NCBI GenBank assembly: GCA_963836205.1
Contig: CAWIIV010000006.1
Coordinates: 384,001 to 448,000, forward strand
Source of the DNA: an uncultured Acidimicrobiia bacterium
GTDB taxonomy: Bacteria; Actinomycetota; Acidimicrobiia; Acidimicrobiales; AC-14
Length of the DNA: 64,000 nt
Direction: 5' to 3'
Shown here piece by piece: positions 31,643-48,372 of the stretch (the first letter of the stretch is position 1; each line of letters begins with the position of its first letter). Both the position numbers and the translations under genes were made by a program. Under the pieces are notes generated by a model that made no database searches, was not told where the DNA came from, and saw only the letters and a program-made list of their open reading frames with translations.

Positions 31643-32524
31643 ATGGCCCGGTTCGGCGCGGTGGTCACCGCCATGGTTACTCCGTTCGACGTCGAGGGCT
31701 CTCTCGACCTCGACGGCGCCGCCGCGCTCGCCCGCTGGTTGGCCGACCACGGCAGTGACGGGCTGGTCGTCACCGGCACCACCGGCGAGGGCTCGGTGCT
31801 TACCGACGAGGAGAAGCTCGAACTCTGGCGGGCCGTGTCCGAGGCCGTCACCATCCCCGTCGTGGCCGGCGCGGGCAGCAACGACACCGCCCATTCGGTC
31901 GACCTCACCCGCCAGGCGGCCGCCGCCGGCGCGGCCGGTGTGCTCGCGGTCACGCCCTATTACAACCGGCCGTCGCAGTCCGGCATCGAGGCCCATTTCC
32001 GGGCCGTCGCCGCCGCCACCAGCCTGCCCGTCCTGATCTACGACATCCCCGTCCGCACCGGGCGCAAGGTGTCCCACGACGTGCTCCTCCGCCTCGCCAC
32101 CGACGTCCCCAACATCGTCGGGGTCAAGGACGCCGCCTCCGACGTGGCCGCCTCCGCCCGCCTGGTGGTGGCCACGCCCGAGCGCTTCGAGCTCTACAGC
32201 GGCAACGACGACCTCACCCTCGCCCTCCTGGCGGTGGGCGCGGTAGGCGTGGTCGGCGTCGCCACCCACTGGGCCGGGCCCCAGATGTCGGAAATGATCA
32301 CGGCCTTCGCCAAGGGAGACACCCAGCGGGCCCGGGAGGTCAACGCCACCTTGTTCGAGTCCTTCGCCTTCGAGTCGTCCGACGCCGCGCCCAACCCCAT
32401 CCCGTCCAAGGCCATGATGCGGGTGCTCGGCCTCGCGGTCGGCGAGTGCCGGTTGCCGATGGGCCCGGCCCCGGCCGGCGTCGACGACCATGCCCGCCGG
32501 GTGCTGGCCGGTCTGAGCCGTTGA
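31643..32524 (+). CDS. dapA: 4-hydroxy-tetrahydrodipicolinate synthase
   Basis: MVTPF, GTTGEG, VTPYYNRP, YDIP, GVKDA. Confidence 0.96.
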   Translation: MARFGAVVTAMVTPFDVEGSLDLDGAAALARWLADHGSDGLVVTGTTGEGSVLTDEEKLELWRAVSEAVTIPVVAGAGSNDTAHSVDLTRQAAAAGAAGVLAVTPYYNRPSQSGIEAHFRAVAAATSLPVLIYDIPVRTGRKVSHDVLLRLATDVPNIVGVKDAASDVAASARLVVATPERFELYSGNDDLTLALLAVGAVGVVGVATHWAGPQMSEMITAFAKGDTQRAREVNATLFESFAFESSDAAPNPIPSKAMMRVLGLAVGECRLPMGPAPAGVDDHARRVLAGLSR

Positions 32525-34200
32525 CCGCTCCCGTCCGGCCCGTTCCCCCGGTCAGAATCGTCTTCCTCGGGGGGCTGGGGGAGATCGGTCGCAACTGCGC
32601 CATCGTCGAGCAGGACGACCGCCTCATGATCCTCGACTGCGGGTTGATGTTCCCCGACGCGGAGATGCTCGGCGTCGACCTGGTCCTGCCCGACTTCACC
32701 TGGCTGCGGGAGAACGCCCACCGGGTCGAGGCCTGCATCATCACCCACGGCCACGAGGACCACATGGGCGGCCTGTCCTACCTGCTGCGCGACCTGTCGT
32801 TCCCGATCTACGGGTCGCACCTCACCCTGGGCCTGGCCCGGAACCGCATCGAGGAAGCGGGGCTCCTCCACCGCACCGAGCTCATCCCCGTGGTCGACGG
32901 CGAGCGGCGGCGGATCGGCCCCTTCGACTGCGAGTTCATCCCCGTCACCCACTCGGTGCCCCACGGCTTCGCCACCGCCTTCCACACCCCCCAGGGCGTG
33001 ATCCTGCACTCGGGCGACTTCAAGATCGACCTCACGCCCGTCGACGGCCGCTGCACCGACCTGGCCCGCATCGGCGCCCTGGCCGCCGGCCCCGGCATCC
33101 GCCTGCTGCTGGCCGACTCCACCAACGCCGAGGAGCCGGGCCACACCGCCACCGAGAGCTCGGTGGGCAAGGTCCTGCGCACCCTGTTCGCGGAGCACAC
33201 CGACAAGCGGGTCATCACCGCCTGCTTCGCCAGCCACATCCACCGGGTGCAGCAGATCGCCGACGCGGCCGTGGCCAACGGCCGGGTGGTGGCCACCCTG
33301 GGCCGGTCGATGGCCAAGAACGTGGCCCTCGCCCGCCAGATGGGCCTGCTCACCATCCCAGACGACTCCCTGGTCGACATCGAGCGCATCGGCGACCACG
33401 ACCCCCGCCGGGTGTGCGTGATCTCCACCGGCTCCCAGGGCGAGCCCATGTCGGCCCTGTCCCTCATGGCCGCGGGCGAGAACAAGTGGCTCAAGGTGGG
33501 CGACGGCGACGTGATCATCATCAGCGCCCACGCCATCCCCGGCAACGAGTACAGCGTGAACAAGGTGATCGACGGCCTCTACCGCCTGGGAGCGGAAGTG
33601 GTGCACTCGGGGCTGGCCGACGTCCACGTCACCGGCCACGCCAAGAGCGAGGAGCTCAAGACCCTCCTCAGCCTGGCCAAGCCGGCCGCCTTCATCCCCG
33701 TCCACGGCGAGTTCCGCCACCTCACCCACCACGCCCGCCTGGCCATCGAGATGGGCGTGGCCGAGCACAACGTGCTCCTGGCCGAGGACGGCGACGTCAT
33801 CCAACTGTCCGACGAGGGCATCGACTTCGTCGACTCCGTCCCCGCCGGCTACCTCTACGTCGACGGCATCGTGGGCGACGTCGGCCACGGGGTGCTCCGC
33901 GACCGCCGGGTGCTCTCGGAGGAGGGCGTGATCGTGGTGGTGGTCACCGTCGACGTCAAGAGCGGCGAACTGCTGGCCCGCCCCGAGATCATCACCAAGG
34001 GTTGGGTCTTCGCCCCCGAGGCCGAGGCCCTCCTGGAAGAAGCCCGCCAGCGGGTGGTGGAAACGCTCGCCCAGGCGGCCAGCGAGGGCGCCTCCGACAT
34101 CGAGACGCTCAAGCGCCACGTGCGCCAGGCGGTGGGACGGTTCGTCAACGAAAAGACCAGGCGGCGACCTATGATCGTCCCCGTGGTGATGGAGGCCTGA
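32521..34200 (+). CDS. rnj: Ribonuclease J
   Basis: GGLGEIGRN, THGHEDH, HSGDFK, STGSQGEP, HVTGHA, PVHGE. Confidence 0.96.
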   Translation: MTAPVRPVPPVRIVFLGGLGEIGRNCAIVEQDDRLMILDCGLMFPDAEMLGVDLVLPDFTWLRENAHRVEACIITHGHEDHMGGLSYLLRDLSFPIYGSHLTLGLARNRIEEAGLLHRTELIPVVDGERRRIGPFDCEFIPVTHSVPHGFATAFHTPQGVILHSGDFKIDLTPVDGRCTDLARIGALAAGPGIRLLLADSTNAEEPGHTATESSVGKVLRTLFAEHTDKRVITACFASHIHRVQQIADAAVANGRVVATLGRSMAKNVALARQMGLLTIPDDSLVDIERIGDHDPRRVCVISTGSQGEPMSALSLMAAGENKWLKVGDGDVIIISAHAIPGNEYSVNKVIDGLYRLGAEVVHSGLADVHVTGHAKSEELKTLLSLAKPAAFIPVHGEFRHLTHHARLAIEMGVAEHNVLLAEDGDVIQLSDEGIDFVDSVPAGYLYVDGIVGDVGHGVLRDRRVLSEEGVIVVVVTVDVKSGELLARPEIITKGWVFAPEAEALLEEARQRVVETLAQAASEGASDIETLKRHVRQAVGRFVNEKTRRRPMIVPVVMEA

Positions 34201-34550
34201 TGTCCGACTCCCCCCTGTCTGACTCCCCCCTGTCTGACTCGCCGATGAGTGGCGGGCCGATGACGAAGGACGAACTGTCCGACACGCTGCGGGCGATGGC
34301 TCCCGACGAGGGGGAGACGCTCTACATCGAGCGCCGGGGCGACGACTACGCCTGGTCCGAGGGCAACGGCCTGGAGAACGCGGCCACCCTCCCCGACGCC
34401 TGGATCTCCTACACCGGGCGCTGGCCGGCCCACGACGCCGAGAAGTGGCGGGAGTTCTTCGCCGACCTCATCGCCGAGCTGGAGTCGATGACCGGCAACG
34501 CCGACCGCTGCCGCTGGCCCCTCGACGACCCCTGGAGCCACCACCACTGA
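34200..34550 (+). CDS. Hypothetical protein
   Basis: ATG overlaps the rnj stop; SDSPL repeats at the start (alternative start 34260); ends CRWPLDDPWSHHH. Confidence 0.7.
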   Translation: MSDSPLSDSPLSDSPMSGGPMTKDELSDTLRAMAPDEGETLYIERRGDDYAWSEGNGLENAATLPDAWISYTGRWPAHDAEKWREFFADLIAELESMTGNADRCRWPLDDPWSHHH

Positions 34551-34793
34551 GTGATCGGGGGAAGGGCGGGCCTTCCCCCCGAACCCCCTCCCGGGGTGCC
34601 GGCCCGGCGGCCGGCGGGGGGCCATCCGAAGCGGCCGCCTGCGGCGGCGTGGGCGGCCGGCTGGGAAAACCTTGAACCACCAGGGCGCGAAGGTGCTGGT
34701 GGGCGGGTTGTTTCGGCGGGGACAGGTCTCCCTTGCCGGGTTGGGGGCTTGTAGATACACTGCCCGCACACAGCAGCCCGGGGGAGGCCAATA

Positions 34794-35048
34794 TTGGAAG
34801 CTGACAGTCTGGCAGGTTGGTACGTCGGCTACGTCATAGCAGCCGTCGTAATCGTTTTGGTGGTTGCTCTCGTGGCCATCATCCTGTCTCTCGTACGGCG
34901 CATCGGGCAGCAGGCCGGAGCGGTCGTCGACGTGCTCGACGATGTCCGCAAGAACACGACGTCGATTCCGGCAGTCGCCACGCTCAACCAGGCGCTGCTC
35001 TCCGTCGTCAACCACGCCGCTACCGCCCGTAAGGCCCTAGGAGGCTAA
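34794..35048 (+). CDS. Small single-TM protein 1 (hydrogenase-associated)
   Basis: GGGGGAGG RBS, TTG start, TM helix followed by amphipathic heptad helix. Confidence 0.8.
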   Translation: MEADSLAGWYVGYVIAAVVIVLVVALVAIILSLVRRIGQQAGAVVDVLDDVRKNTTSIPAVATLNQALLSVVNHAATARKALGG

Positions 35049-35050
35049 GA

Positions 35051-35326
35051 ATGGTTTTCGGACTCGCATCGGAACACGAGCTGTTCTGGTGGATCACGTT
35101 GGGCCTGGGGGCGGTCGTCATCTCGGCCGTGATCCTGCTCCTGTTCCTGCTCCTCCAGTACGTGAAGGACGTCGGCCGCGGTGTCCAGGCCATCTGGGAC
35201 ATGGCCAGCCGGGTCGCGGCCCAGACGGTGTGCACCTGGATGCTCCCGACCACGGTCGAGATGTGCAAGGCCCTCCGCGAGGAGCTCGGCCTCCACGTCA
35301 AGCTGCTCACGCCGGCCGGAAAGTAG
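35051..35326 (+). CDS. Small single-TM protein 2 (hydrogenase-associated)
   Basis: AGGAGG RBS, FWWITLGLGAVV.. TM followed by amphipathic helix. Confidence 0.8.
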   Translation: MVFGLASEHELFWWITLGLGAVVISAVILLLFLLLQYVKDVGRGVQAIWDMASRVAAQTVCTWMLPTTVEMCKALREELGLHVKLLTPAGK

Positions 35327-35338
35327 GGGGAGACTGAC

Positions 35339-35596
35339 ATGATCGCTCTGCAAGTCGTACTTACCTGCGTCGAGATCGTTCTCCTCGCCGGCGTCCTCGT
35401 CTACTTCCTCCGGGCCATCGACGCCCAGCTGGTGGGCGTCGTCGACAACCTGGTCAAGATCTCCAAGGGCGTGAAGGCGGTCGAGGACCACTGCGCCATC
35501 ATCGGCCCAGGTGCCGACCAGGTGAACCGCATCCTCGGCGAGGCCGCTGGTGGCCTCACCCAGGCGTGCGTGCTGGCCGAGGGCCTCAGCGCCTAA
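35339..35596 (+). CDS. Small single-TM protein 3 (hydrogenase-associated)
   Basis: GGGGAG RBS, LTCVEIVLLAGVLVYFL TM, KISKGVKAVEDH..IGPG. Confidence 0.8.
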   Translation: MIALQVVLTCVEIVLLAGVLVYFLRAIDAQLVGVVDNLVKISKGVKAVEDHCAIIGPGADQVNRILGEAAGGLTQACVLAEGLSA

Positions 35597-35631
35597 AGCC
35601 ACAACCCATCGAAGGGGACTCGTTCCCCGGA

Positions 35632-35665
35632 CAAGAGCGGCGCCGGTTCTCCGGCGCCGCTCTTG
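35632..35665 (+). terminator. Perfect 15-bp stem terminator after the TM1-3 operon
   Basis: caagagcggcgccgg-ttct-ccggcgccgctcttg followed by ccttt. Confidence 0.75.
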
Positions 35666-35716
35666 CCTTTCAGGACCGGCTGCTTTTCAGGACCGGCTGC
35701 TTTTCAGGACCGGCGG
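35666..35716. repeat. 17-bp tandem repeat x3 containing a stop codon
   Basis: c(c/t)tttcaggaccggc(tg/gg). Confidence 0.9.
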
Positions 35717-36198
35717 AGGGCCAGGACGAGGGCCCCGGCCGCCAACACCGCCGTCCCGACGTCGGAGAGGGTGCCTCCGAGCACGAAGCCGAGGGAGTCG
35801 TCGGCGTCGGCGGCGATCATGACGTCGACCACCACGACGGCCGCGCCCACCGCCACCAGCCAGCCCGCGGCCACGCCCACCATGAGCCGGGCCGTGGCCG
35901 CCAGGGCGGCCGAGCCCGCGGCCAGCACCGCGCCCACTGCCAGGGCGGCTCCCACCGCGATCCCTCCCCCACCTCCACCGGCGAAGGAGAAGCCGCTGAG
36001 GCCGACGATCTTGGCCCGCAGCTTCCAGGAGTCGTCGTCCCCTGAGATCCCGTCGAGGGTGAGGCCGGAGATCAGGGCTCCGGCCAGCACCAGCAGGCAG
36101 GCGGTGGCGATCACCAACGCCACCGTGGGGTTGGCGTCACGGCCGGAGGCGCCGCCCGCAGGTCGGTCGGGCGACCAGGGTTGATAGGTGCCGCTCAC
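35704..36198 (-). CDS. Hypothetical integral membrane protein (~4 TM)
   Basis: AAGGAG RBS, GTG start, four hydrophobic segments. Confidence 0.65.
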   Translation of the reverse strand: MSGTYQPWSPDRPAGGASGRDANPTVALVIATACLLVLAGALISGLTLDGISGDDDSWKLRAKIVGLSGFSFAGGGGGGIAVGAALAVGAVLAAGSAALAATARLMVGVAAGWLVAVGAAVVVVDVMIAADADDSLGFVLGGTLSDVGTAVLAAGALVLALRRS

Positions 36199-36543
36199 GC
36201 CGGGCTCCTTCGTCGGGAGGTAGAGGCCCGCGGAGTGTGACACAGCGGCAGCGGCCGACACGCGGGGCCGGCGCCCCCCAACTACCAGAACGGTCCCCGG
36301 CGCCGCGCCAGAGGGCTCTCAGAGGGCCGTGGCGGGCCGTGGCGGGGCCGGGCCGAGAGGTACGGGCTCGCCGGCGCCGTTCTCCCGTTTGGACCCGGAC
36401 GCGCCACTGCGCCGAGCGTCGGCTCGGCGCAGCAAGGTGGACCGAAGGCCGCGGCCGCCAGCGGGGATGAACGCCAACGACGAATGCCCGTCCCGCGTGC
36501 CGGCGATCCGGCACCCGGGACGGGCATTTCGCCCGGTCAGGCT

Positions 36544-36957
36544 TTAGCGACCCTTGGCGCGGGCGACAGCCGCGGCCATCTTGGACGCACCCGGGGCGAC
36601 AGACCCGGAGGCCGGAGCCGCCGCTGCGCCGCGGGGTCGAGCAGCACCGCGGGCCGGGGCCGGGGGCGGGGCCTTGTGCGGGGACGGCTTGCCGGCGGCC
36701 TTGGCCGCAAGCGCCGCGCCGACGAGCTCGAGGAGGCCCTCGAGGTCGTCGTCGATACCCAGCACGTCACCGGCGATTCCACCGACGACCCGGTTGACGG
36801 GGTCGGTCTGGCGCTTGATGTTCTGCACCGCCTCGACGATGGTGTCGAGGGCGGAGGTGACGACCTTCAGGCCAGCGGCGATCGCAATGAGGTGGTAGGC
36901 GATGGCCAGAACGATCACGGCGACCACGATCAGCGTGGCCACAGTTTCGGGTCCCAT
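36544..36957 (-). CDS. Small single-TM protein 5 with Ala/Pro/Lys tail (hydrogenase-associated)
   Basis: AAGGAG RBS; TM followed by LKVVTSALDTIVEAVQNIKRQTDPV. Confidence 0.8.
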   Translation of the reverse strand: MGPETVATLIVVAVIVLAIAYHLIAIAAGLKVVTSALDTIVEAVQNIKRQTDPVNRVVGGIAGDVLGIDDDLEGLLELVGAALAAKAAGKPSPHKAPPPAPARGAARPRGAAAAPASGSVAPGASKMAAAVARAKGR

Positions 36958-37002
36958 GGAACTCCTTCTTGTTCTCGGGTTGCCGGGTAACTACAGAGAG
37001 GG

Positions 37003-37251
37003 CTACAGCGCCCGGAGCAGGGCCGCGCCGTACCTGCCCACCAAGCGGCGGGCCGCAGTGGACAACTCGTTGGTCTTGACCAGCTTGGGCACCGCGTCGA
37101 GCCGCCGGCTGATGCCGCCCGCACCGGAGATGATCTCGCCGGCCAGCCCCTGGATCGTCTTGATGCGCCCCAGAACGCTTGCCGCGCTCTTCGCCACTAC
37201 CAGACCGGCAAGCAACATGACGACGATGCCCACCCACCACAAAACAACCAT
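37003..37251 (-). CDS. Small single-TM protein 4 (hydrogenase-associated)
   Basis: GAAAGG RBS; LWWVGIVV TM followed by IKTIQGLAGEIISG..LDAVPKLVKT. Confidence 0.8.
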   Translation of the reverse strand: MVVLWWVGIVVMLLAGLVVAKSAASVLGRIKTIQGLAGEIISGAGGISRRLDAVPKLVKTNELSTAARRLVGRYGAALLRAL

Positions 37252-37498
37252 CTACCTTTCCCCCTTGTCTCGGTCCACGGCCGGATTCCGTCGGCGCCGG
37301 CTCTGATCCTGGGATCAGACGGTGCCGCCGAAGCGGCCCTGCTGTACCTCATCTGCCGGCCGTCTCCCGGAGGAGCCAGCCGGTACCACGTCGACCTTCG
37401 CCCCGCTGTTCGCGGCGGATGCAGGGAGGACGGTAGACGGCCCGAGCCACACGTGTCGAGTGGCAAACGCAAAGTCACCCCCACGACCCTGCAACCGA

Positions 37499-37593: not shown

Positions 37594-37710
37594 CAGAGGG
37601 GGCCGGCCCCGCGGCCGACCCCTTCCCGTGCAATCTTCCATCGGCGAGCCCACGTGCGCCGTGACTCCCAGGGGCGCCGACCTCGCTCAACTCAAGCCGC
37701 CGGGTTCAAC

Positions 37711-37923
37711 TCACGCGCGCCGGAGGCCCTCGAGGGCGCCCCTGCCGGACTTCAACAGCTGGCTGGCCATGGGGATGGCGCCGTTCATGGCACCGCTGAG
37801 GGCCTTGGTGACCTCGCCCGACGAGGCCATGCCGGTGACGGCCCGCTTCACGTTGCCCAGGCTCTCAGAGCCGGACTTGGCGCCGACGAACCAGCCGACG
37901 GCAACCCCGATCAGAACGCCCAT
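37711..37923 (-). CDS. Small membrane-associated hypothetical protein, coupled to hypC
   Basis: GGAGG RBS; MGVLIGVAVGWFVGAKSG followed by amphipathic helices. Confidence 0.75.
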   Translation of the reverse strand: MGVLIGVAVGWFVGAKSGSESLGNVKRAVTGMASSGEVTKALSGAMNGAIPMASQLLKSGRGALEGLRRA

Positions 37924-38204
37924 TTCGAAACCTCCGAAGGTTCGTCGAATCCATCGAACTCGTCTTGGGCGTCGTCAGACGGCCCCCGCATCATCACCAG
38001 GCCACGCATGGCGTTCTCAGCTTCGGCGGCGTCGATCTTCTGCATGGCGAAGCCGACGTGGATGAGGACCCACTCGCCCGGCACGACGCCGCCCTCGATG
38101 AGGCCGGTGTTGACGTTGCGCTTCTCCCCCATGACGTCGATCGTCGCCAGGTCAGAGTGCTCTGGCACCAGCTCGACAACCTTCCCGGGAATCCCGAGGC
38201 ACAT
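37911..38204 (-). CDS. hypC: Hydrogenase maturation chaperone HypC
   Basis: MCLGIPG, WVLIHVGFA. Confidence 0.95.
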   Translation of the reverse strand: MCLGIPGKVVELVPEHSDLATIDVMGEKRNVNTGLIEGGVVPGEWVLIHVGFAMQKIDAAEAENAMRGLVMMRGPSDDAQDEFDGFDEPSEVSKWAF

Positions 38205-38531: not shown

Positions 38532-38636
38532 TCACATCTCCCGAATCTTGAGGTAGCGCTGGATGTCGGGGAGGGAGTTGACGACCATCCCTGCCACCAC
38601 TGCCACGACCAGGCTCTTTACCAACTTACCGAGCAT
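38532..38636 (-). CDS. 34-aa DUF6893-like micropeptide
   Basis: AAGGAG RBS; MLGKLVKSLVVAVVAGMVVNSLPDIQRYLKIREM. Confidence 0.82.
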   Translation of the reverse strand: MLGKLVKSLVVAVVAGMVVNSLPDIQRYLKIREM

Positions 38637-38637
38637 T

Positions 38638-39138
38638 TCAGCTCTCCTTTCCGGCAACAAGTGCCGACATCTCTTGCTGGAGCAGTTCTCCCACCACCTG
38701 TACCGCCTTGTCAACAGCCACCGCTACTGCCGGAGAGAGACCCATTCGCTCCTCCAGCTCGGCTGGTTCACAACCGACCACCAACAGCCGCCTGACCTCT
38801 CCACCGAGGTCGGCGAGCAAAGCCAACACTGCCAACGGATGCATCTCGTGTGCATCGACATCAACCTCGTCTCGATCGAAATCGAGGTCGGGCTCGAAAA
38901 GATACACCGTACCGGGCTCGTCGCCCCGGGGAAGTGCGTCGAGCAGGATTACCAGGTCGTAGTCGTTGTCCCGCAGGTCGTAGGCCAGGTGGAGGCCCCG
39001 TATCCCGTAGTCGATGACTGACACCCCTTCGGGCACCGGTTCGTGACTCAACCGCAGCGCCAGCTCGACGCCGAAGGCGTCGTCGGCCAGGAAGATGTTG
39101 CCGATACCGGCAACGAGGATGTTGGGTCGGGCCGTCAC
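38638..39138 (-). CDS. Hydrogenase maturation endopeptidase
   Basis: AGIGNIFLADDAFG, DYGIRGLHLAY, LLDA, DAHEMHP, VGCEP. Confidence 0.93.
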   Translation of the reverse strand: MTARPNILVAGIGNIFLADDAFGVELALRLSHEPVPEGVSVIDYGIRGLHLAYDLRDNDYDLVILLDALPRGDEPGTVYLFEPDLDFDRDEVDVDAHEMHPLAVLALLADLGGEVRRLLVVGCEPAELEERMGLSPAVAVAVDKAVQVVGELLQQEMSALVAGKES

Positions 39139-39163
39139 CGTGCACTCATTGGGACAGGCGCAC

Positions 39164-40684
39164 TCATTGGGACAGGACCTCGACCTCGTGGATCCGGAAG
39201 TAGCGGAACCGGCCGATCCAGCTCGGGAGCTCGGTCGCAGCCGGGTCGTCGTCGACGGAGACCGCCAGGTGGATGTCGCCGTCGATGTCGTGGAAGACGC
39301 CCTCCACGGTGGCTGTGAGGCCCACCAGGAACATGTCCTGGGCATCGGAGCGGTTGCCGGGGTGGAGGCGCACCTTGGCCCCCTTGCCCACCTGCACGCC
39401 GCTCAGCCGGGTGGTGTCCTCGAACGGCTTGTAGCGGGCGTCGGTCTCGGCGTCGAGGCGGACGTTGCCGATGAGGCCGTCGGCGTCGGTGCTGAAGGTG
39501 GGGAAGTCGTCGCCGTTCCCAGCCAGGCCGCCACCAAACTCGTTGGCGAAATCGGAGCCGAACGGGGCCATGTCGCCCGTGCCGAGCCCGGAGTCGACCT
39601 CGTCGTCGTCCTCGTCGTCGTCGTCGTCGACCACGGCGTTGCCGGGGAGGGGGATGGAGCGCAGCGACCGGATGGCGCCGTGGAGCTTCTCCATCATCTC
39701 CGGGGGCATGTTCTCGACCCGGTCCATGATGGCGGCCGACCGGGGGTCGGTGCCGCGGGCCTCGGCCCGCTCCTCCTCGGTCAAGGTGTTGACGAAGAGG
39801 TGGAGCATCTCGTCGACCTCGGTGGCGTCGTAGAAGTCGCCTTCGCTCTCAGGAGCGATCTCCGGGTAGTCGGACAGGGTGATCGGCGACGACAGGATCG
39901 TGTTGCGGTGGTCTTCGTCGCCGATGAGGCACGGCCAGGTGCCGGCGTTGACGCAGCCGGCGACGGCCGGCTTGGCGAACTCGGGCGGGTCGGCCAGGGA
40001 GATGAACGAGCCGTTGCGCACCTCGAGGAGGGTGTGGACGGCCGCCATGCAGTAGCGGACGAACTCCTCCCGGGCCGCCCCGTGCTTGGCCCAGTCGGTG
40101 AGGTTCTCGATGACGACCCGGACCTTGACGATCGAGAACGGGCTGTCGTCGCGCTCGGCGCTGACCCGGGCCACGGCCGTGAGGGGCACCGTCTCCCGGA
40201 TCATGCGGCCGACGAGGGTGCCTTCCTTGTCGGTGATGTCCTCGGTGGAGTGGGAGGCGGGGAAGTCGAGGGGCATGTCGCGGCCATGGGCGACGAGATC
40301 GGCCAGCGGCACCTCGGCCAGGTCGATCTCCTCCTCGATGGCCTCCTGCCAGTCGGTGATGATGCGGTCGTCGACGGTGAGCGACGCCACCGGCCGGAAG
40401 TAGCGGTCGCCCGCATCGGTCTCGACCAGCGCCTCGACGCTGCGGGACTGCACCCGCAGGAAGCGCAGCTTGACGTCGAGGACGGGCTCCCGGCTGGAGT
40501 CGACCAGGACCTCGGTCTGCATCGACCACCGCTCACCGGGGTCGAGCTCGGCCACCGACTTGGGGGCGACCACGCCGAACTGCCAGCGGACCTGGCTCTT
40601 GAGGCTCTTGGCCCGGTACGGGAACAGGACGTAGCCCTCGTAGAGGACGGCGTCGGCCACCCTGCGGGCGTCGGCCAGGCTCAC
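39164..40684 (-). CDS. Conserved group 1h hydrogenase-cluster hypothetical protein
   Basis: VADAVLYEGYVLFPYR, RWQFG, LSSPITLSDYPEIAPESEGDFYDATEVDE, DAQDMF. Confidence 0.85.
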   Translation of the reverse strand: MSLADARRVADAVLYEGYVLFPYRAKSLKSQVRWQFGVVAPKSVAELDPGERWSMQTEVLVDSSREPVLDVKLRFLRVQSRSVEALVETDAGDRYFRPVASLTVDDRIITDWQEAIEEEIDLAEVPLADLVAHGRDMPLDFPASHSTEDITDKEGTLVGRMIRETVPLTAVARVSAERDDSPFSIVKVRVVIENLTDWAKHGAAREEFVRYCMAAVHTLLEVRNGSFISLADPPEFAKPAVAGCVNAGTWPCLIGDEDHRNTILSSPITLSDYPEIAPESEGDFYDATEVDEMLHLFVNTLTEEERAEARGTDPRSAAIMDRVENMPPEMMEKLHGAIRSLRSIPLPGNAVVDDDDDEDDDEVDSGLGTGDMAPFGSDFANEFGGGLAGNGDDFPTFSTDADGLIGNVRLDAETDARYKPFEDTTRLSGVQVGKGAKVRLHPGNRSDAQDMFLVGLTATVEGVFHDIDGDIHLAVSVDDDPAATELPSWIGRFRYFRIHEVEVLSQ

Positions 40685-40694
40685 GAGCCAAACC

Positions 40695-41441
40695 TCACGA
40701 GGAGGCCCCGTTGCCGGTGGCGCCGTTGGAGGGCGCCCCGACCTCGGCGCCCTCGGCGGCCTTGGCCGCCTTGGGCTCGGGCGCACCGGACGCGTCCATC
40801 AGCCCGTTGGGCAGGTCGGCCTCGCCCAGGAGGACGTCGAACGTGCGCTCCCAGGAGGTGAGGCCCCGGATGGTGCGGAAGCGCTCCAGCTTGTCCATGG
40901 TGGCCCGCTCGAAGCGGATCCAGGCCTGGCCCGGGAAGTAGATGTCCATCACCGCTCGCCAGATGCCCGAGGGCAGGCCGAAGCGGGCCTCCTTGTTCCA
41001 CGGCACCGGCTCGATGGAGAAGCCGGACTCCCCCTTGGAGATGATGGTGCCGTTGAACAGCAGGTTGACGGGCACGTCGCCCGTCTCGATGGCGTGCAGG
41101 AACTTGGTGGAGGCCAGCTCCCAGTCGTAGGTGAGCGGCACCTGGATGTCGATCTCGACGCTGTCGGTGAACTGGGTGACCATGGTGCCCACCGTCGACC
41201 AGAAGAAGGGCTTGAGCGTCTGCCCCCAGCGCTCGCGCTCTCCGAACTGGGCGAGGAGGCGCTGCTCCTCCTCCGGCTCGTAGCGGCGGCGCTGGGGCTC
41301 GATCATGATCTGGGTGCGGAGGGCGACGGCGTAGATGCTGTCGCCGCTCGTCTCCGAGATGCGCACCTTGAACGTGATCGTCGGTGCGGCGCAGAAGCGC
41401 TCGGGCGCGACGCCGACGACCTCGAACTCGAGATCGCTCAC
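40695..41441 (-). CDS. DUF6084-like hydrogenase-cluster protein
   Basis: ALRTQIMIEPQRRRY, FGERERWGQTLKP, LLFNGT, VPWNKEA. Confidence 0.8.
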   Translation of the reverse strand: MSDLEFEVVGVAPERFCAAPTITFKVRISETSGDSIYAVALRTQIMIEPQRRRYEPEEEQRLLAQFGERERWGQTLKPFFWSTVGTMVTQFTDSVEIDIQVPLTYDWELASTKFLHAIETGDVPVNLLFNGTIISKGESGFSIEPVPWNKEARFGLPSGIWRAVMDIYFPGQAWIRFERATMDKLERFRTIRGLTSWERTFDVLLGEADLPNGLMDASGAPEPKAAKAAEGAEVGAPSNGATGNGASS

Positions 41442-42145
41442 GTTTGGCTCGTGACAGCCGGCTGTGCTCGCCCTCGGACTCGAGTGAAGAAGTCGGCCAT
41501 GGCCTGGTGGGCCTCGGTGCCGCCGTCGAAGCCCCGCCACAGGCGGCGGAGGTACCCCACCAGCTCGTAGCAGGCGTCGATGGGCACGATGAAGGACTCG
41601 TCGGGCCCGGAGCGGTCGCCCACCCGCACCAGCAGGGCCTCGATGTCGGCCTGCATGGTGGTGAGCACGGGGTTGGACTCGGCCATCTCCGCCCAGGTGT
41701 CGACGGGCAGGAGGGACTCGGTGGCGCCGGCGGGGCTGGGGTAGAAGGCCACCAGCTGCTCGGCCTCGGAGTTGAAGAAGAAGAACGCGGTGCTGACCGG
41801 GATCTGCAGGTTGTCCCACTGGTTGGGGGTCAGGGCCACCTTGTCCATCGACACGTAGCGGTCGGGGACGGCCTTGTAACGCCCGCCTCCCGCCCCACCG
41901 GAGGTGAAGAGCAGGTAGCACGGGCGGCAGGCGCAGAGCAGGCTGCGGCTCTCGATGTTGACGATGTGCGGGTGTTCGTCGGGGACGTCGACCGCGCACA
42001 TCTCGCACTTCTCACCGGGTCGGGGGCGAGGCTTCGGTTGCAGCAGCTTCTCGATGGCTGCGAACGGCCGGGCCTCTTCCTTCTCGCCCCCCTCGGGGTT
42101 GAGCGCCCGGAACGAGCCGAGCCGTAGAAAGTCAGGATTCGACAT
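41438..42145 (-). CDS. DUF5947-like hydrogenase-cluster protein
   Basis: CEMC..H.H..CACRPC, FYPSPAGATESLL, PIDACYELVG, WRGFDGG. Confidence 0.82.
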   Translation of the reverse strand: MSNPDFLRLGSFRALNPEGGEKEEARPFAAIEKLLQPKPRPRPGEKCEMCAVDVPDEHPHIVNIESRSLLCACRPCYLLFTSGGAGGGRYKAVPDRYVSMDKVALTPNQWDNLQIPVSTAFFFFNSEAEQLVAFYPSPAGATESLLPVDTWAEMAESNPVLTTMQADIEALLVRVGDRSGPDESFIVPIDACYELVGYLRRLWRGFDGGTEAHQAMADFFTRVRGRAQPAVTSQT

Positions 42146-42150: not shown

Positions 42151-42720
42151 TTACCGGTTCGCAGCGACAGGTTTGACGCTGAGCTGGATCGGGGCCGAAG
42201 CGGGCAACGGCGCGGCCACAGGTGCGGTCGGGTCGACGTAGCCCTCCACCTGGATGTCGGTGATCTCGGGTGCAGCCTCGTGGATCGCCTGCTCGACGGA
42301 GAGCTTGAGGGTGACCGACGACGACGGACAGCCGTCGCAGCTCCCCAGGAGGCGAACTCGCACGATTCCCTCGTTGGCGAGTATGTCGAGCAACTCGACG
42401 TCGCCACCGTGGGACTCAAGGTAGGGCCGCACCGAGTCGAGGGCCTTCTCCACACGGGTGGGAAGGTCGTCGGGGTGCAGGCCGTGGAGGACGAGCAGGC
42501 TGCTCACCAGCTCGTCATGGACGATTTCTGCGATGAGTGGAGTGGCCTCGGCGTCGACGAGGATCTCGAGGATCCGGTCGAGAGCACCGCCGTAGAGCTG
42601 TGCTACCAAGCCAAGTGCTTCCTCGGCCAGAGCCCAGGTCGCCGGCTGTGCCGACGACCTGAGCTCGCTGACCAAGTACTCAATGCGGTCACCGACCGCA
42701 CGAAGGTTCGTTGCGCTGAT
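42151..42720 (-). CDS. NifU/Nfu-like Fe-S protein; probable ATC start at 42720 (next conventional start TTG at 42675)
   Basis: LLVLHGLHP, VRPYLESHGGDVEL, GSCDGCPSS; frame open up to the hhyL stop with RBS GGGGAG. Confidence 0.88.
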   Translation of the reverse strand: MSATNLRAVGDRIEYLVSELRSSAQPATWALAEEALGLVAQLYGGALDRILEILVDAEATPLIAEIVHDELVSSLLVLHGLHPDDLPTRVEKALDSVRPYLESHGGDVELLDILANEGIVRVRLLGSCDGCPSSSVTLKLSVEQAIHEAAPEITDIQVEGYVDPTAPVAAPLPASAPIQLSVKPVAANR

Positions 42721-42723: not shown

Positions 42724-44502
42724 TTACTCCCCGGTGTTGACCATGGTGGGCGAGTGCAGCTTCTTGACCATCTTGCCCTTGCCCAGGTACATGTGCACAC
42801 CACAGGGCAGGCAGGGGTCGAAGCTACGCACGGCACGCATGATGTCGATGCCCTTGAAGTTCTCACGGCTGTTCTCTTCGAAGATCGGCGTGTTCTGCAC
42901 CGCGTCCTCGTAGGGGCCGGGAGTGCCGTAGATGTCACGCGGGTTGGCGTTCCACGGCGTCGGGGGGTACGGGTGGTAGTTGGCGATCTTGCCACCACGG
43001 ATGACCATGTGGTGGGAGAGAACGCCACGGACGGCCTCGGTGAAACCGCAACCGATCGCCTCGTCGGGGACCGTGAACGGCTCCCAGGTCTTGGTGTGGC
43101 CGGCGCGGACTTCCTCGAGAGCCTTCTCGACGAAGTACATGCCACAGCCAGCCGCGTAGGCCTGGAAGTAGGTGCGGGCCCGGTGACGCTCGATCGTGTT
43201 GGACCACTTCGGCACGTGCCACTCGAAGCTCGCCTCAGGCTTGAGGGCGGTCTTCGGGAGGTTGATGATGATGGAGTTGCCGGTTGCCTTGACCCAGCCG
43301 ATGTCGACCAGACCGGACAGCGCGATGGCCATCATCCGGGCGAAAGCACCACCACCGGTGTCGGTGGCGAGGTGGTCGCGTCCGTCGTACCAACGGGGAG
43401 CCATGACCCAGCTGTACTTGCCGTCGAAGTTGCGCTTCTGCGGCTGCGGGATCGTGTGCTGGTTCCACGGGTGGTTGCGGTCAACCGCGTTGCCCAGGGG
43501 GTCACGGTCGACGAACATCTCCTGGCCTTCCCAGCTCTCGTAGTACGAGTGGCCGAGCAGGATGCGGAGACCGAGGTTGATGTCGACCAGGTCGTTCGTG
43601 ACCAGCTTGCCGTCGACGACGATACCGGGGGTGACGAACATCGCACGTCCCCACTCGGTCATGTCGCGGTAACGGAAGTTGCACACGTTCGGGTCCTGGA
43701 AGGCGCCCCAGCAGATGGTGAGGATACGGCGCTGGCCGTTGGCCTCGTAGCCGGGCATGGCCTCGTACACGAAGTCGAAGAGGTCGTCGTGGATCGGGAC
43801 GATCTTCTTCATGAACTCGCAGTAGCGCATCAGGCGCGCCATGTAGTCCGTGATGAGCTGGATGGAAGCCGTGGTGCCCATACCACCCGGGTACAGGGTG
43901 GACGGGTGCACGTGGCGACCCTCCATGAGGCAGAACATCTCACGCGTGTAGCGGCTGACCTGCAGCGCCTCACGGTAGAGGTCACCCGAGAACGGGTTGA
44001 GGGACCGCATGATGTCACCGATGGTGGCGTAGCCATGCTCGGCGGCACCGGGGGCCTCGGTGTCGTTCGCGAGGTCCAGGACGCCGGGGTTGGTCTCCGC
44101 GAACATCTTCTCGCAGAAGTCAACGCCGACCAGGTTCTCCTGGAAGATGTTGTGGTCGAACATGTACTCGGCTGCCTCGCCGAGGTTCAGGATCCACTCA
44201 CCCAGGTGCGGGGGCTGCACGTCGTACGCCATCTGCTGGCAGTAGCACGAGCACACGCAGTGGTTGTCACCACAGATACCGCAGATGCGGCTGGTGATGA
44301 AGTGGGCGTCCCGGGGGTCCTTGCCCTTCATGAAGATCGAGTAGCCACGGAAGATCGAGGAGGTGCTGTGACACTCGACGACCTTGCCCTGGGCGAAGTC
44401 GATCTTGGTGTAGATGCCCAGGGAGCCCACGATCCGGGTGACCGGGTCCCATGCCATCTCGACGAGGTCGCTGCCGCCTCGAGTCCTTGCCCTAGCTGCC
44501 AT
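42724..44502 (-). CDS. hhyL: Group 1h [NiFe]-hydrogenase large subunit
   Basis: WDPVTRIVGSLG, L1 TSRICGICGDNH, EAVRGVLSHH, L2 SFDPCLPCGVH plus cleavable tail. Confidence 0.96.
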   Translation of the reverse strand: MAARARTRGGSDLVEMAWDPVTRIVGSLGIYTKIDFAQGKVVECHSTSSIFRGYSIFMKGKDPRDAHFITSRICGICGDNHCVCSCYCQQMAYDVQPPHLGEWILNLGEAAEYMFDHNIFQENLVGVDFCEKMFAETNPGVLDLANDTEAPGAAEHGYATIGDIMRSLNPFSGDLYREALQVSRYTREMFCLMEGRHVHPSTLYPGGMGTTASIQLITDYMARLMRYCEFMKKIVPIHDDLFDFVYEAMPGYEANGQRRILTICWGAFQDPNVCNFRYRDMTEWGRAMFVTPGIVVDGKLVTNDLVDINLGLRILLGHSYYESWEGQEMFVDRDPLGNAVDRNHPWNQHTIPQPQKRNFDGKYSWVMAPRWYDGRDHLATDTGGGAFARMMAIALSGLVDIGWVKATGNSIIINLPKTALKPEASFEWHVPKWSNTIERHRARTYFQAYAAGCGMYFVEKALEEVRAGHTKTWEPFTVPDEAIGCGFTEAVRGVLSHHMVIRGGKIANYHPYPPTPWNANPRDIYGTPGPYEDAVQNTPIFEENSRENFKGIDIMRAVRSFDPCLPCGVHMYLGKGKMVKKLHSPTMVNTGE

Positions 44503-45860: not shown

Positions 45861-48372
45861 GTGGCGACCACGACGCCGCGCCCGAAGGCTGCGACGGGCA
45901 AGCCCTCCTCCAAAGTTTCCACCAGAAAATCTCCGTCCGGTGGTGGTTCGCGGCGGGCGGGCGAGCCTTCCAATCGTCCCGCGCCCGGTTCGGCGACCCG
46001 TCGACCGTCCGGCTCGCCGCCGCCGAAGTCGTCCTCGGGGGCCAGAAAGAAGGGCACCGCCGCCGCCCGCGGCACCGGTCCCGTCCTCGGCGGCCACGGT
46101 CCCGACCTCGCCGGCGTCACCCTGGTCACCGGCGGGCTGGTCTGTGGACTGGCTGTGTACGGCGGGCTGGCCGGACCCGCCGGGCGGGCCCTCGCCGACG
46201 GGGCCGGCTCCGCCTTCGGGCTGGGCCGCTTCGGCCTCCCGGTGGCCCTCGTCGCCGCCGGCGGGCTGATCCTGTGGCGGCGGGCGGGCAAGGAGTACGG
46301 GCGGCTGGCCGCGGGGCTCGGACTGATGACGGTGGCCGCCTGCGGGCTGCTCCACGTGTGGACCGGCGGCCCCGGCTTCGGTGCACCGGCGGCGGAGCTC
46401 CGCGACGCCGGCGGCGCGGTGGGGCTGGCCGTGGGCGAGTCGCTGCGGTCGGTGCTGGCCGGGTGGGGCGCGGCGACGGTGCTGCTCGCCGCCTTCGCCA
46501 TCGGCGGGCTGGTGGTCGGTCGCACCACGGTCCGGGCCGCCAGCCGCCACGCGGTGAACCTGGCCCGGGCCGGTCGCCGGGGCGCGACCCGCGCCGGGCG
46601 CTCCCTCTCCACCCTCGCCCCCGCCGACCGCTCGCTCGACGAGCGACGGACGACCTCGACGGGCACGACGACGACCGGCGCCGTCCGGCCGGGCCCCGGG
46701 TGTCGTCGCCGCCGGCCACGGTGCCGACGTTGGTCGTGCCGCCCCTTCCCGACGCCGTGCCGCTCCCGTCCCCGAGGCGGCCGTCGAGCCGGAGCCGCAG
46801 CCGCCGATGGCCACGCCGCCGACCGGGTCGGAGCGGCCGGGGAAGGCGGGCGGGCCCACCGAGCAGCTCGAGATCGACCTCGGCCCGGCGGCGGAGCGCA
46901 GCCCGTGGAAGCTCCCGCCACTGTCGCTGCTCAAGCTGGGCAAGGCCCAGGAGGTCGACCGGCGCCTGGTCGAAGCCGAGGGCCGCACGCTCGAAGCCGC
47001 CCTCGCTGCCCACGGGGTGGAGACCTCGCTCGTCGGCATGACCGTCGGGCCCACCGTCACCCGCTACGAGCTCGCCCTCGGTGCGGGGGTGAAGGTGGCC
47101 CGGGTCACCAACCTCCACAAGGACATCGCCTACGCCATGGCGTCGGCCGACGTCCGCATCCTCGCCCCCATCCCCGGCCGCTCTGCCATCGGCGTCGAGG
47201 TGCCCAACAAGGCCCGCCAGCTCGTCCTCCTGGGCGACATCCTCACGTCGCCCGAGGCGGCCAAGGCCTCCCACCCCCTCGAAGTCGCCCTCGGCCGCGA
47301 CATCGCCGGGCGGCCGGTATTGGCCAACCTGGCCGAGATGCCCCACGTGTTGATCGCGGGAGCCACCGGTGCGGGCAAGTCGTCGTGCATCAACTCGCTC
47401 ATCACGTCGATCCTGGCCCGGTCCACCCCCGACCAGGTGCGGATGATCCTCATCGACCCCAAGCGGGTCGAGCTGGGCCAGTACAACGGCCTCCCCCACC
47501 TGCTCACCCAGGTCGTGGTCAACCCCAAGAAGGCGGCCAACGCCCTGGCCTGGGCGGTGCACGAGATGGAGCGCCGCTACGACCTGCTGGCCGAGGTGGG
47601 CGTGCGCGACGTCACCGGCTACAACGCGGCCTACGACCGGGGCGACCTCAAGCCGAATCCTCATGAGACTGGCCCCGGCAGCGAGGTCACCTACCCCCGG
47701 CTTCCGTTCATCGTGGTGGTGGTCGACGAGCTGAACGACCTCATGATGGTGGCCGCCCGCGACGTGGAGGAGTCGATCTGCCGCATCGCCCAGATGGCCC
47801 GGGCCGTCGGCATCCACCTGGTGATCGCCACCCAACGGCCGTCGGTCGACGTGATCACGGGCGTGATCAAGGCCAACATCCCGTCCCGTCTGGCGTTCGC
47901 GGTGTCGTCGCTGGCCGACAGCCGGGTCATCCTCGACCAGCCGGGGGCGGAGCGGCTCATCGGCCAGGGCGACATGCTGCTGGCCATCGCCTCGTCCAAC
48001 GTCCCTCGGCGGGTGCAGGGGGCGTGGGTGGGCGAGGACGAGGTGCGCAAGCTGGTGGCCCACTGGCGGCGGCAGGCGACGCCCCAGTACGTCGACGGGG
48101 TGGAGGGCGAGGAGGGCGCCGCCGGCGGTGGCGCGGCGGGCGTCGAGGACGACGACGAGGAGCACCTCGACGCGGCCATGGAGCTGGTGGTGCGCTCGCA
48201 GCTGGGGTCGACCTCGATGCTCCAGCGCAAGCTCCGGGTCGGGTTCGCCCGGGCCGGGCGGCTCATGGACCTGCTCGAACGCCGGGGCGTGGTCGGCCCG
48301 TCGGAGGGGTCGAAGGCCAGGGCCGTCCTCATGACGCCCGAGGAGCTCGACGCCCTCCGGGCCCGCCAGTAG
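45861..48372 (+). CDS. ftsK: DNA translocase FtsK, frameshift(s) in the linker at about 46620-46790
   Basis: 4TM N-terminus in one frame; [30 protein letters not shown] and gamma domain [13 protein letters not shown] in another. Confidence 0.93.

What the first reader, a model, noticed from the sequence alone, without database searches (positions are those of the whole stretch)
34794..37251. Five single-TM helical proteins attached to a group 1h hydrogenase: candidate membrane stalk or quinone link
Seen: five 82-137 aa ORFs with good RBSs in two convergent mini-operons (3+2). All have one N-terminal TM followed by a ~50-aa amphipathic heptad helix broken near a Thr/Pro. Established (from memory, to verify): five small TM ORFs are a hallmark of group 1l hydrogenase loci; group 1h enzymes lack a cytochrome b anchor and their electron exit is unresolved; group 2a Huc uses a helical HucM stalk to carry menaquinone. 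The enzyme here has clear 1h signatures. Inference: a hetero-oligomeric helical tube connecting HhySL to the membrane quinone pool, or a 1l module retained after enzyme replacement.
Basis: partly seen in the sequence, partly recalled or inferred. Interest (0 to 1): 0.88.

Follow-up and report, generated by a model that had tools for sequence, protein, structure and literature searches.

The report
HylTM-type membrane helices beside 1h hydrogenase
Five small single-pass membrane proteins next to an air-hydrogen-scavenging enzyme are real, conserved genes related to a five-gene set so far described only for a different hydrogenase group, and relatives of the same set also sit beside carbon monoxide dehydrogenases, which points to a shared membrane-coupling device.

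Summary
All five ORFs are real genes with Shine-Dalgarno sites, one strong TM helix and an amphipathic helical tail. They match no Pfam or NCBIfam model.

They correspond one-to-one to the five small TM genes that lie between the small- and large-subunit genes in group-1l-type loci, the published HylTM1-5 arrangement. The mapping is S1=TM1, S2=TM2, S3=TM3, S5=TM4, S4=TM5. Here the cassette is split 3+2 and lies at the tail of a genuine group 1h operon (5aa5-like). The whole block is inserted between rnj and ftsK. No 1l enzyme and no CoxL were found in this genome, which is 88.6% complete.

The 1h-linked cassettes form one clade within Acidimicrobiales. None of 47 other 1h-bearing Actinomycetota genomes has the cassette near its 1h genes. 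More distant copies sit in form I CO-dehydrogenase operons.

The most likely function is a membrane stalk or quinone link, but this is inferred and not shown. I rate it a new variant of a known kind.

The parts
34794..35048 (+). S1, 84 aa, single N-terminal TM plus amphipathic helix; orthologue of TM1 of the five-gene cassette
   Evidence: family alignment A2; best HMM partner is TM1, 37.6 bits; hhalign 94.9%
35051..35326 (+). S2, 91 aa, single TM, W..TLGLG and NT.TTWM motifs; orthologue of TM2
   Evidence: TM2 57.6 bits, hhalign 98.7%; 22 of 41 relatives
35339..35596 (+). S3, 85 aa, single TM, GV.A.E...IGP..N motif; orthologue of TM3
   Evidence: TM3 54.0 bits, hhalign 99.2%
37003..37251 (-). 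S5, 82 aa, single TM at the very N-terminus (WW motif), PKL...RYG.AL motif; orthologue of TM4
   Evidence: TM4 26.0 bits as best partner, hhalign 96.5%
36544..36957 (-). S4, 137 aa, single TM, helix, then an Ala/Pro-rich tail; orthologue of TM5 and paralogue class of S3
   Evidence: TM5 41.2 bits, hhalign 96.8%; sub-threshold DUF948 match of 14.6 bits
37599..37622 (-). terminator-like hairpin between the small gene after hypC and S5
   Evidence: 1 site found; 1.8 expected in shuffles, so weak
37711..37923 (-). 70-aa Gly-rich small protein overlapping the hypC stop; conserved after hypC in 1h loci
37911..38204 (-). hypC
   Evidence: PF01455 6.7e-23
38532..38636 (-). 34-aa DUF6893 mini-protein with one hydrophobic helix
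   Evidence: PF21833 9.9e-13
38638..39165 (-). hydrogenase maturation protease
   Evidence: PF01750 4.3e-18
39164..40786 (-). 540-aa protein conserved in 1h operons, no Pfam family
40695..41441 (-). DUF6084 protein
   Evidence: PF19562 9.2e-80
41438..42145 (-). DUF5947 protein
   Evidence: PF19372 1.5e-69
42151..42675 (-). NifU-like protein (HhyE-type position in the operon)
   Evidence: PF01106 1.6e-23; HhyE described in PMC6883350 (passages read)
42724..44502 (-). hhyL, group 1h large subunit
   Evidence: 5aa5_C 1035.7 bits; PF00374
44554..45636 (-). hhyS, group 1h small subunit (likely start at 45600); no Tat-type N-terminus seen, no C-terminal extension
32446..34200 (+). rnj, left border of the inserted block
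46807..48372 (+). ftsK (C-terminal part), right border of the inserted block

Best explanation
The five genes encode the Acidimicrobiales version of the HylTM1-5 cassette. This is a set of five paralogous single-pass proteins of two classes: S1/S2/S5 form the 'W...NT' class and S3/S4 the 'GV.A.E...P..N' class. By the positive-inside rule their short N-termini face outward and their 55-60-residue amphipathic helices lie in the cytoplasm. I propose that they assemble into one membrane-anchored hetero-oligomeric helical bundle. This bundle would dock the cytosolic, anchor-less HhySL enzyme to the inner face of the membrane and bring its distal FeS cluster close to menaquinone, either by simple tethering or through a hydrophobic lumen. 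SHOWN: the genes are real; they match the interposed TM genes of 1l-type loci one-to-one; they are genomically linked to hydrogenase operons; they were gained together with the 1h operon as one block; and there is a single 1h-linked clade. INFERRED: the topology, the hetero-oligomer, contact with the enzyme, and any role in quinone access. Rough odds: orthology about 0.9; functional partnership with the hydrogenase about 0.7; membrane tether or electron-exit coupling about 0.5; an actual quinone-conducting tube about 0.2.
For: (1) Homology and order. Loci L149, L150, L151, L152 and L182 have hylS, five tightly packed or overlapping small TM ORFs, then hylL. Profiles built only from the window-type families find each of those five as best partner on the diagonal (hhalign 94.9-99.2%).

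(2) Linkage. Among 41 related genomes, 22 have S2 and all 22 also have a PF00374 match (21 over the cut-off). No genome has S2 without a PF00374 match, 10 have hydrogenase only, and 9 have neither. Where contigs allow, S1-S3 lie 0.5-13 kb from hhyS/L in three different arrangements: convergent at the operon tail, divergent upstream of hhyS, or downstream in the same direction. G018 carries one cassette beside its 1h enzyme and another beside its 1l-type enzyme.

(3) One block. rnj and ftsK are 0.8-2.8 kb apart in the same-family genomes G011, G012 and G022, which lack the cassette. They are 12.6 kb apart here, with the cassette and the hhy operon between them.

(4) Translational coupling. Stops and starts are adjacent or overlapping in many loci, as expected for subunits made in fixed proportion.

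(5) Cassette in CO-dehydrogenase operons. The same five-gene cassette lies in form I CO-dehydrogenase operons in 9 genomes. What the two enzyme types share is being cytosolic or peripheral oxidoreductases that must deliver electrons to membrane quinone.

(6) Physical features fit a stalk: one TM each, a heptad-like amphipathic tail, and K/R immediately after each TM.

(7) Literature. Group 1h and 2a enzymes lack cytochrome b-type subunits (PMC6883350, passages). AlphaFold modelling of HylTM1-5 as tube-like scaffolds near the distal cluster is in print for group 1l (PMC13554262, passages). Helical tubes that connect oxidoreductases to quinone are established for the unrelated HMP/HucM family (PMC13433803, PMC13524794, PMC10017518).

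(8) RNA-library contigs of two studies, at least 90% alike, cover S1-S3 and S4-S5. This is consistent with transcription but does not prove it.
Against: There is no physical or structural evidence of contact with HhySL.

HhyS aligns end to end with the C. necator 1h small subunit and has no extra C-terminal element that could serve as a docking handle.

Most 1h enzymes do without the cassette. None of the 47 other 1h-bearing genomes in the phylum sample has an S2 hit within 20 kb of its 1h gene, so it cannot be the general electron exit of group 1h.

Some cassettes lie 11-17.5 kb from the enzyme, or have no hydrogenase or cox gene in the fetched stretch: L160, L162, L168, L169, and L084 and L106 with 10-kb flanks.

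There are no universally conserved His or Cys residues that could bind a redox cofactor (alignments), so the proteins cannot carry electrons themselves.

The function of HylTM1-5 in group 1l is itself only modelled, not tested.

I could not compare directly with the Hymenobacter roseosalivarius HylTM proteins.
Confidence: 0.5

Rival explanations
1. The five proteins are membrane-bound assembly or stabilisation factors. They would be needed while the hydrogenase (or CODH) matures or is delivered to the membrane, and would not be part of the working electron path.
For: The cassette often neighbours maturation genes: CooC-like ATPase, hypC and proteases. In this window it sits at the maturation end of the operon, after hypC. 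Both hydrogenase and CODH need metal-centre maturation.
Against: In 1l-type loci the cassette lies between the two structural genes with overlapping stops and starts, a typical place for structural subunits. Ni-Fe and Mo-Cu maturation pathways share no known membrane step (established knowledge). There are no metal-binding motifs.
Confidence: 0.15
2. They form a membrane-anchored coiled-coil sensing or regulatory device of the DUF948/YoxC type. It would report membrane state and tune enzyme activity or expression.
For: There are sub-threshold DUF948 matches: S4 at 14.6 bits, and the longer paralogues in L084 at 18-19 bits. JGI labels some TM2 homologues 'uncharacterized protein YoxC'. The S3 profile matches coiled-coil and chemoreceptor chains weakly.
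Against: No output domain and no partner regulator are conserved beside the cassette. All DUF948 matches fall below Pfam's cut-off of 37.2 bits. Five co-translated paralogues are unusual for a sensor.
Confidence: 0.1
3. They are generic envelope or membrane-organising proteins that merely travel in the same islands as trace-gas enzymes, with no direct partnership.
For: Some copies have no enzyme gene in the fetched stretch (L160, L162, L168, L169). 44 of 74 loci show no hydrogenase gene in the flanks held, although 41 of these are cut by a contig end within 10 kb on at least one side.
Against: No genome among the 41 relatives has S2 without a hydrogenase match. There are separate cassettes for separate enzymes within one genome. 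The cassette is interposed between hylS and hylL. Context labels cluster on the tree: 15 changes against 46.5 in shuffles (kin are not independent).
Confidence: 0.1
4. The ORFs are chance open frames in GC-rich DNA.
For: High-GC DNA yields many spurious ORFs (48 ORFs of at least 50 aa in 4 kb).
Against: Third-position GC is high in all five ORFs I tabulated, 0.84-0.93 for S2-S5 (S1 was not listed by those filters). All have SD sites and protein-level conservation down to 34-45% identity across classes and phyla.
Confidence: 0.01

Closest known systems
HylTM1-5 of group 1l [NiFe]-hydrogenase loci (Ortiz et al. preprint 10.1101/2020.08.06.239558; PMC13554262)
   Same: There are five small single-TM proteins. 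Each matches one of the five ORFs interposed between hylS and hylL in loci with the published arrangement. The internal order TM1-2-3 and TM4-5 is the same. The associated enzyme is a cytosolic high-affinity-type uptake hydrogenase without cytochrome b.
   Different: The partner enzyme is group 1h (5aa5-like; 36-46% identity to the 1l-type large subunits). The cassette is not between the structural genes. It is split into two convergent units at the far end of the operon, about 5.5-7.7 kb from hhyL. The comparison was with Actinomycetota and Chloroflexia loci that fit the published definition, not with the Hymenobacter proteins themselves.
HMP / DUF1641 'helical membrane plugin' tubes (HucM of group 2a Huc, ForE, YjlC/Ncp)
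   Same: The proposed role is the same: an all-helical scaffold encoded beside a cytosolic oxidoreductase that connects it to the membrane quinone pool. It has been recruited by several enzyme types (PMC13433803, PMC13524794, PMC10017518; passages or listing).
   Different: There is no sequence relation: no DUF1641 match at E<=1. HMP proteins form homotetramers and plug into the membrane without a TM helix (per the papers). Here there are five different chains, each with a true N-terminal TM. No structure exists for this cassette.
DUF948 / YoxC family (PF06103)
   Same: The architecture is the same: an N-terminal TM followed by a coiled-coil-like helix. Weak matches exist, and JGI names some homologues YoxC.
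   Different: All matches are well below the Pfam cut-off, and the function of DUF948 is itself unknown. No claim of membership is justified.
CoxG, the quinone-extracting lipid-binding protein of Mo-CODH (PMC12202499)
   Same: It addresses the same problem, bringing menaquinone to a soluble trace-gas oxidoreductase. It is encoded directly upstream of the cassette in L156, L172 and L173.
   Different: CoxG has an SRPBCC fold with a C-terminal TM helix and is unrelated in sequence. It coexists with the cassette rather than replacing it.

Membership tests
HylTM1-5 cassette (group 1l accessory) | Five small ORFs, each with one predicted TM helix | tested here: met
   one strong hydrophobic segment in each of the five.
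HylTM1-5 cassette (group 1l accessory) | Sequence homology, one-to-one, to the five ORFs interposed between hylS and hylL | tested here: met
   Best partner lies on the diagonal for all five; hhalign 94.9-99.2%. The reference loci L149, L150 and L152 fit the published gene order. The Hymenobacter proteins themselves could not be obtained.
HylTM1-5 cassette (group 1l accessory) | Position between the small- and large-subunit genes | tested here: not met
   hhyS and hhyL are adjacent (44554-45636 and 42724-44502). The cassette lies at 34794-37251, split 3+2.
HylTM1-5 cassette (group 1l accessory) | Partner enzyme is a group 1l hydrogenase | tested here: not met
   The partner is 1h: 5aa5_C 1035.7 bits. 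1l-type large subunits are only 36-46% identical. No 1l-type gene was found in the genome (88.6% complete).
Group 1h [NiFe]-hydrogenase (the enzyme) | Closest solved relative is the C. necator actinobacterial-type (1h) enzyme; typical operon partners | tested here: met
   NifU-like, DUF5947, DUF6084, protease and hypC. HydDB itself was not available.
HMP / DUF1641 (HucM-like) | DUF1641 domain | tested here: not met
   No such match at E<=1 in any of the five.
DUF948 / YoxC (PF06103) | Score over the Pfam gathering cut-off (37.2 bits) | tested here: not met
   S4 scores 14.6 bits; the others have no match.
Cytochrome b-type hydrogenase anchor | Multi-TM protein with conserved haem-ligating His | tested here: not met
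   Each has a single TM; no invariant His in the TM segments; no Pfam match.

The most novel reading that the evidence does not exclude
The five-protein single-pass cassette is an enzyme-independent membrane and quinone coupling device for cytosolic atmospheric trace-gas oxidoreductases. In different lineages it has been recruited by group 1l hydrogenases, by group 1h hydrogenases (this window) and by form I Mo-Cu CO dehydrogenases. It would be a TM-anchored heteropentameric counterpart of the HucM/HMP tube. If so, it supplies the missing electron exit for those Hhy-type enzymes that have it.
Probability: 0.3. Interest if true: 0.82.

Novelty: new variant of a known kind. Interest (0 to 1): 0.64.

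Why it matters
How group 1h hydrogenases, the main biological sink of atmospheric H2, pass electrons to the respiratory chain is unresolved, because they lack a cytochrome b subunit.

A defined five-gene candidate partner that was gained together with a 1h operon makes that question testable in one lineage. Finding the same cassette beside 1l hydrogenases and form I CO dehydrogenases suggests a common solution for coupling soluble trace-gas enzymes to the membrane. That would parallel the recently established HMP/HucM tubes but use unrelated proteins.

It also gives annotators five unannotated families, with no Pfam or NCBIfam model, that flag trace-gas oxidation loci.

Tried and rejected
1. 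Complex prediction with S1+S2+S3 and HhyS as partner, all given as alignments: verdict 'no answer' (score 0.00, mark 0.32, controls not run). This is no evidence either way. Only four distinct chains were allowed, so the full five-chain cassette with HhySL could not be tried.

3. I tried to reach the Hymenobacter roseosalivarius HylTM proteins in two ways: a cluster look-up of ten low-GC-looking S2 relatives and a profile search with 1l-type TM2. They returned SAR324/'Deltaproteobacteria', Ktedonobacteraceae, Rubrobacteraceae and unnamed records, but no Hymenobacter.

4. PDB profile searches with S2 and S3 gave only designed coiled coils and chemoreceptor fragments. These reflect composition, not homology.

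5. The ESM Atlas search returned only unannotated Actinomycetota clusters.

6. The 185-aa ORF 35704-36261 (-) between the two units was considered as a sixth member and rejected. It has no SD site and is conserved in only 1 of the loci examined (L050). RNA-library contigs leave that spacer almost uncovered, which by itself proves nothing.

7. Metatranscriptome contigs cannot rank expression or show operon structure. The shares of words held were small (0.07-0.17), so no habitat claim is made.

8. I considered that the cassette serves a CODH in this genome. No CoxL match was found at E<=1e-20.

9. All three were corrected and repeated.
Full report
WHAT IS THERE

The window comes from a 71% GC genome. 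Its nearest public relatives are titled 'uncultured Acidimicrobiia bacterium' MAGs. The five ORFs are at the stated coordinates and form two convergent units: S1-S2-S3 on the plus strand and S5-S4 on the minus strand.

Each ORF has a Shine-Dalgarno-like site and exactly one strong hydrophobic segment near its N-terminus. Each tail shows heptad-like amphipathic periodicity far above shuffled controls. AlphaFold2 models S2 as a long helix, a short break at the conserved NT.TTW motif, and a second helix. It models S3 as one long helix with a confidence dip at the conserved IGP. Lys or Arg directly follows every TM (sequences). By the positive-inside rule this puts the helical tails in the cytoplasm; this is inference.

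None of the five matches a Pfam or NCBIfam model above cut-off. The only hint is a sub-threshold DUF948 match for S4.

SURROUNDINGS

On the minus strand lies a complete group 1h structural and accessory operon:
- hhyS and hhyL, with best solved relatives 5aa5_A and 5aa5_C at 526 and 1036 bits
- a NifU-like protein, DUF5947, DUF6084 and a conserved 540-aa protein
- a maturation protease, a 34-aa DUF6893 mini-protein, hypC and a 70-aa Gly-rich protein

After a 460-bp gap with a weak terminator-like hairpin, S5 and S4 follow on the same strand. S1-S3 converge on them.

The whole 12.6-kb block lies between rnj and ftsK. In three same-family genomes without the cassette (G011, G012, G022), rnj and ftsK are 0.8-2.8 kb apart. 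A fourth genome, G023, shows the same but is unpublished. The cassette and the hydrogenase operon therefore behave as one inserted unit.

The genome is 88.6% complete. It also holds a second 1h-like enzyme (67% identity) on three near-identical short contigs. It shows no 1l-type large subunit and no CoxL.

THE GENES ARE REAL AND LINKED TO HYDROGENASES

S2 is found in 22 of 41 related genomes and PF00374 in 32 of 41. All 22 genomes with S2 have a PF00374 match, 21 of them over the cut-off. G021 has only fragments at contig ends. Ten genomes have hydrogenase without S2 and nine have neither. Related genomes are not independent observations, so I give no test.

Where contigs allow, the S1-S2-S3 triplet lies 0.5-13 kb from hhyS/L, in three arrangements:
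- convergent at the operon tail (own genus, G016, G019)
- divergent directly upstream of hhyS (L036, L069, L080; also L037/L038, which are unpublished genomes)
- about 11-13 kb downstream of a 1l-type enzyme (L034, L035)

G018 has one triplet beside its 1h enzyme and another near its 1l-type enzyme.

Of the 74 loci returned by the pattern-based genome scan:
- 18 show 1h genes, 6 show 1l-type genes, and 6 show only hydrogenase accessory genes within the flanks held.
- 44 show none.
- 41 of those 44 are cut by a contig end within 10 kb on at least one side.
- Of the three with full flanks, one (L108) has a 1l-type enzyme 17.5 kb away on the same contig. The other two genomes have hydrogenases on other contigs.

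WHAT THE GENES ARE

A Chloroflexia contig (L116) has S2- and S3-like genes between the small- and large-subunit genes. In a sample of 401 Actinomycetota genomes the S2 profile hits 33.

Five of these genomes (L149, L150, L151, L152, L182) show hylS, five overlapping small single-TM ORFs, then hylL. This is the arrangement published as the hallmark of group 1l, with the ORFs named HylTM1-5 (preprint 10.1101/2020.08.06.239558, passages read). The large subunits of these loci are 36-46% identical to the window's HhyL. A separate 1h mode sits at 58-80%.

Profile-profile comparison and HMMs built only from the window-type families pair S1 with TM1, S2 with TM2, S3 with TM3, S5 with TM4 and S4 with TM5. 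The same comparisons show two paralogue classes: S1/S2/S5 and S3/S4.

Transcription order in the window (S1,S2,S3 and S5,S4) keeps the cassette order, cut once. I could not obtain the Hymenobacter roseosalivarius proteins. The equation with 'HylTM1-5' therefore rests on the published gene-order definition, not on a direct alignment.

HOW SPECIAL THE 1h ASSOCIATION IS

In the phylum sample, 47 genomes other than G000 have a large subunit at least 58% identical to the window's (counted by hand from the table). Ten of them also have an S2 hit. In none is that hit within 20 kb of the 1h gene. The hits lie beside 1l-type or cox genes, or on other contigs.

I built a quick maximum-likelihood tree of concatenated S2+S3 with 107 distinct rows. 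Rows from unpublished genomes and one row under 70 residues were dropped. All 18 rows whose nearest enzyme is 1h fall in one clade of 21 rows with SH-aLRT 100. That clade sits inside a 67-row Acidimicrobiales clade whose other members are 1l-linked or have no enzyme in the flank. Rooting is at the midpoint only.

This fits a single recruitment of the cassette to a 1h operon within Acidimicrobiales.

AN UNEXPECTED CONTEXT

More distant copies of the full five-gene cassette lie inside CO-dehydrogenase operons. There are two layouts:
- coxM-S-L, xdhC/coxI, coxG, then S5-S4-S1-S2-S3, facing coxE/coxD (L156, L172, L173)
- S1-S2-S3-S5-S4 upstream of coxMSL (L157, L158, L159, L167, L170, L171)

This covers nine genomes. 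Eight of the nine CoxL genes carry AYRCSFR, which I recall as the form I signature. The ninth CoxL is cut by the end of the fetched stretch. G421, G427, G339, G251 and G418 show no HhyL-like gene at E<=1e-30.

I found no paper that mentions this. The searches were 'HylTM' (21 papers hold the string, 15 were listed, and only 2 of those are hydrogenase work); 'carbon monoxide dehydrogenase' plus 'small transmembrane proteins' (1 paper, the Ortiz preprint); and passages of the CoxG paper PMC12202499.

MECHANISM

What 1h and 1l hydrogenases and form I CODH have in common is that they are cytosolic or peripheral trace-gas oxidoreductases that must reduce membrane menaquinone without a cytochrome b-type subunit. 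This is stated in PMC6883350, PMC12202499 and PMC10017518 (listing).

A 2026 paper models HylTM1-5 as intertwined tube-like scaffolds that hold the 1l enzyme at the membrane near the distal cluster (PMC13554262). For the unrelated HMP/DUF1641 family (HucM, YjlC/Ncp, ForE), helical tubes that carry quinone to docked enzymes have been solved experimentally.

I therefore consider a membrane-anchored hetero-oligomeric stalk that tethers HhySL and gives it access to quinone the most likely function. Every step beyond homology and gene linkage is inference.

Several observations count against it as a general solution:
- Most 1h enzymes lack the cassette.
- HhyS has no extra docking element relative to the C. 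necator enzyme.
- Some cassettes are far from any enzyme gene.
- No conserved cofactor ligands exist.

The rival readings are maturation or stabilisation factors, a DUF948/YoxC-like sensor, and hitch-hiking envelope proteins. They are listed with odds in the Rival explanations section.

EXPRESSION

Contigs from four RNA-library runs of two studies, at least 90% alike, lie on S1-S3 and on S4-S5 as well as on hhySL. Such libraries can contain DNA, and contigs cannot show strand or transcript ends. This is only consistent with expression.

VERDICT

The stalk or quinone function is unproven.

The finding is a new variant of a known kind, namely a 1l-type TM cassette attached to a 1h enzyme and split 3+2. 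The additional lead is that the cassette is shared with CO dehydrogenases.

Claims resting on unpublished genomes: none exclusively. L037/L038 (= L088/L093), L174, L176, L179 and G023 only add instances to patterns that are also seen in public records.

Noticed in passing
L156 7843-9246; L172 about 5040-6400; L173 about 50-1500; L157, L158, L159, L167, L170, L171: The same five-gene small-TM cassette lies inside form I CO-dehydrogenase (coxMSL, coxG, coxD/E) operons in nine Actinomycetota genomes. Five of them have no HhyL-like gene at E<=1e-30.
   Followed up: partly
G000 contigs C3 1228-5543 (L183), C4, C5: A second 1h-like hydrogenase (large subunit 67% identical, small and large subunit genes adjacent) is followed 19 bp later by a PAS-HisKA-HATPase histidine kinase. 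This recalls H2-sensing hydrogenase/kinase pairs. It is present on three ~99% identical 10-kb stretches of three short contigs, and homologues occur throughout the genus.
   Followed up: partly
window 38532-38636 (-) and 37711-37923 (-): There are two further tiny hydrophobic proteins in the 1h operon: a 34-aa DUF6893 protein after the protease and a 70-aa Gly-rich protein overlapping the hypC stop. Both are conserved in related 1h loci.
   Followed up: partly
window 35704-36261 (-): A 185-aa Gly/Ala-rich multi-hydrophobic ORF with gene-like codon bias lies in the spacer between the two units. It has no SD site and was matched in only one other locus (L050). The spacer length varies from 0.3 to 3.4 kb among relatives.
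   Followed up: partly
L084 13219-15387 (-); similar in L034, L035, L082, L091, L102, L103, L108: Three longer (209-254 aa) single-TM proteins with weak S4/S5-like and DUF948-like matches lie between S1-S3 and S4-S5 in one Acidimicrobiales clade. A CooC-like ATPase and a NuoF-like gene are nearby.
   Followed up: partly
window 42724-44502 (-), N-terminal third of HhyL: The stretch after the first CxxC motif reads CGDNHCVCSCYCQQ, with four extra Cys. The genome's second 1h-like enzyme has CGDNHATASVYAQQ at the same place.
   Followed up: no
window 39164-40786 (-): A 540-aa protein with an acidic low-complexity stretch and no Pfam family is conserved in every 1h locus examined, at 46-96% identity.
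   Followed up: no
window 32446-48372: The classic dapA-rnj-ftsK neighbourhood is interrupted by the 12.6-kb hydrogenase-plus-cassette block in this genus. The block has slightly lower GC (0.64-0.70) than its flanks (0.71-0.75).
   Followed up: partly
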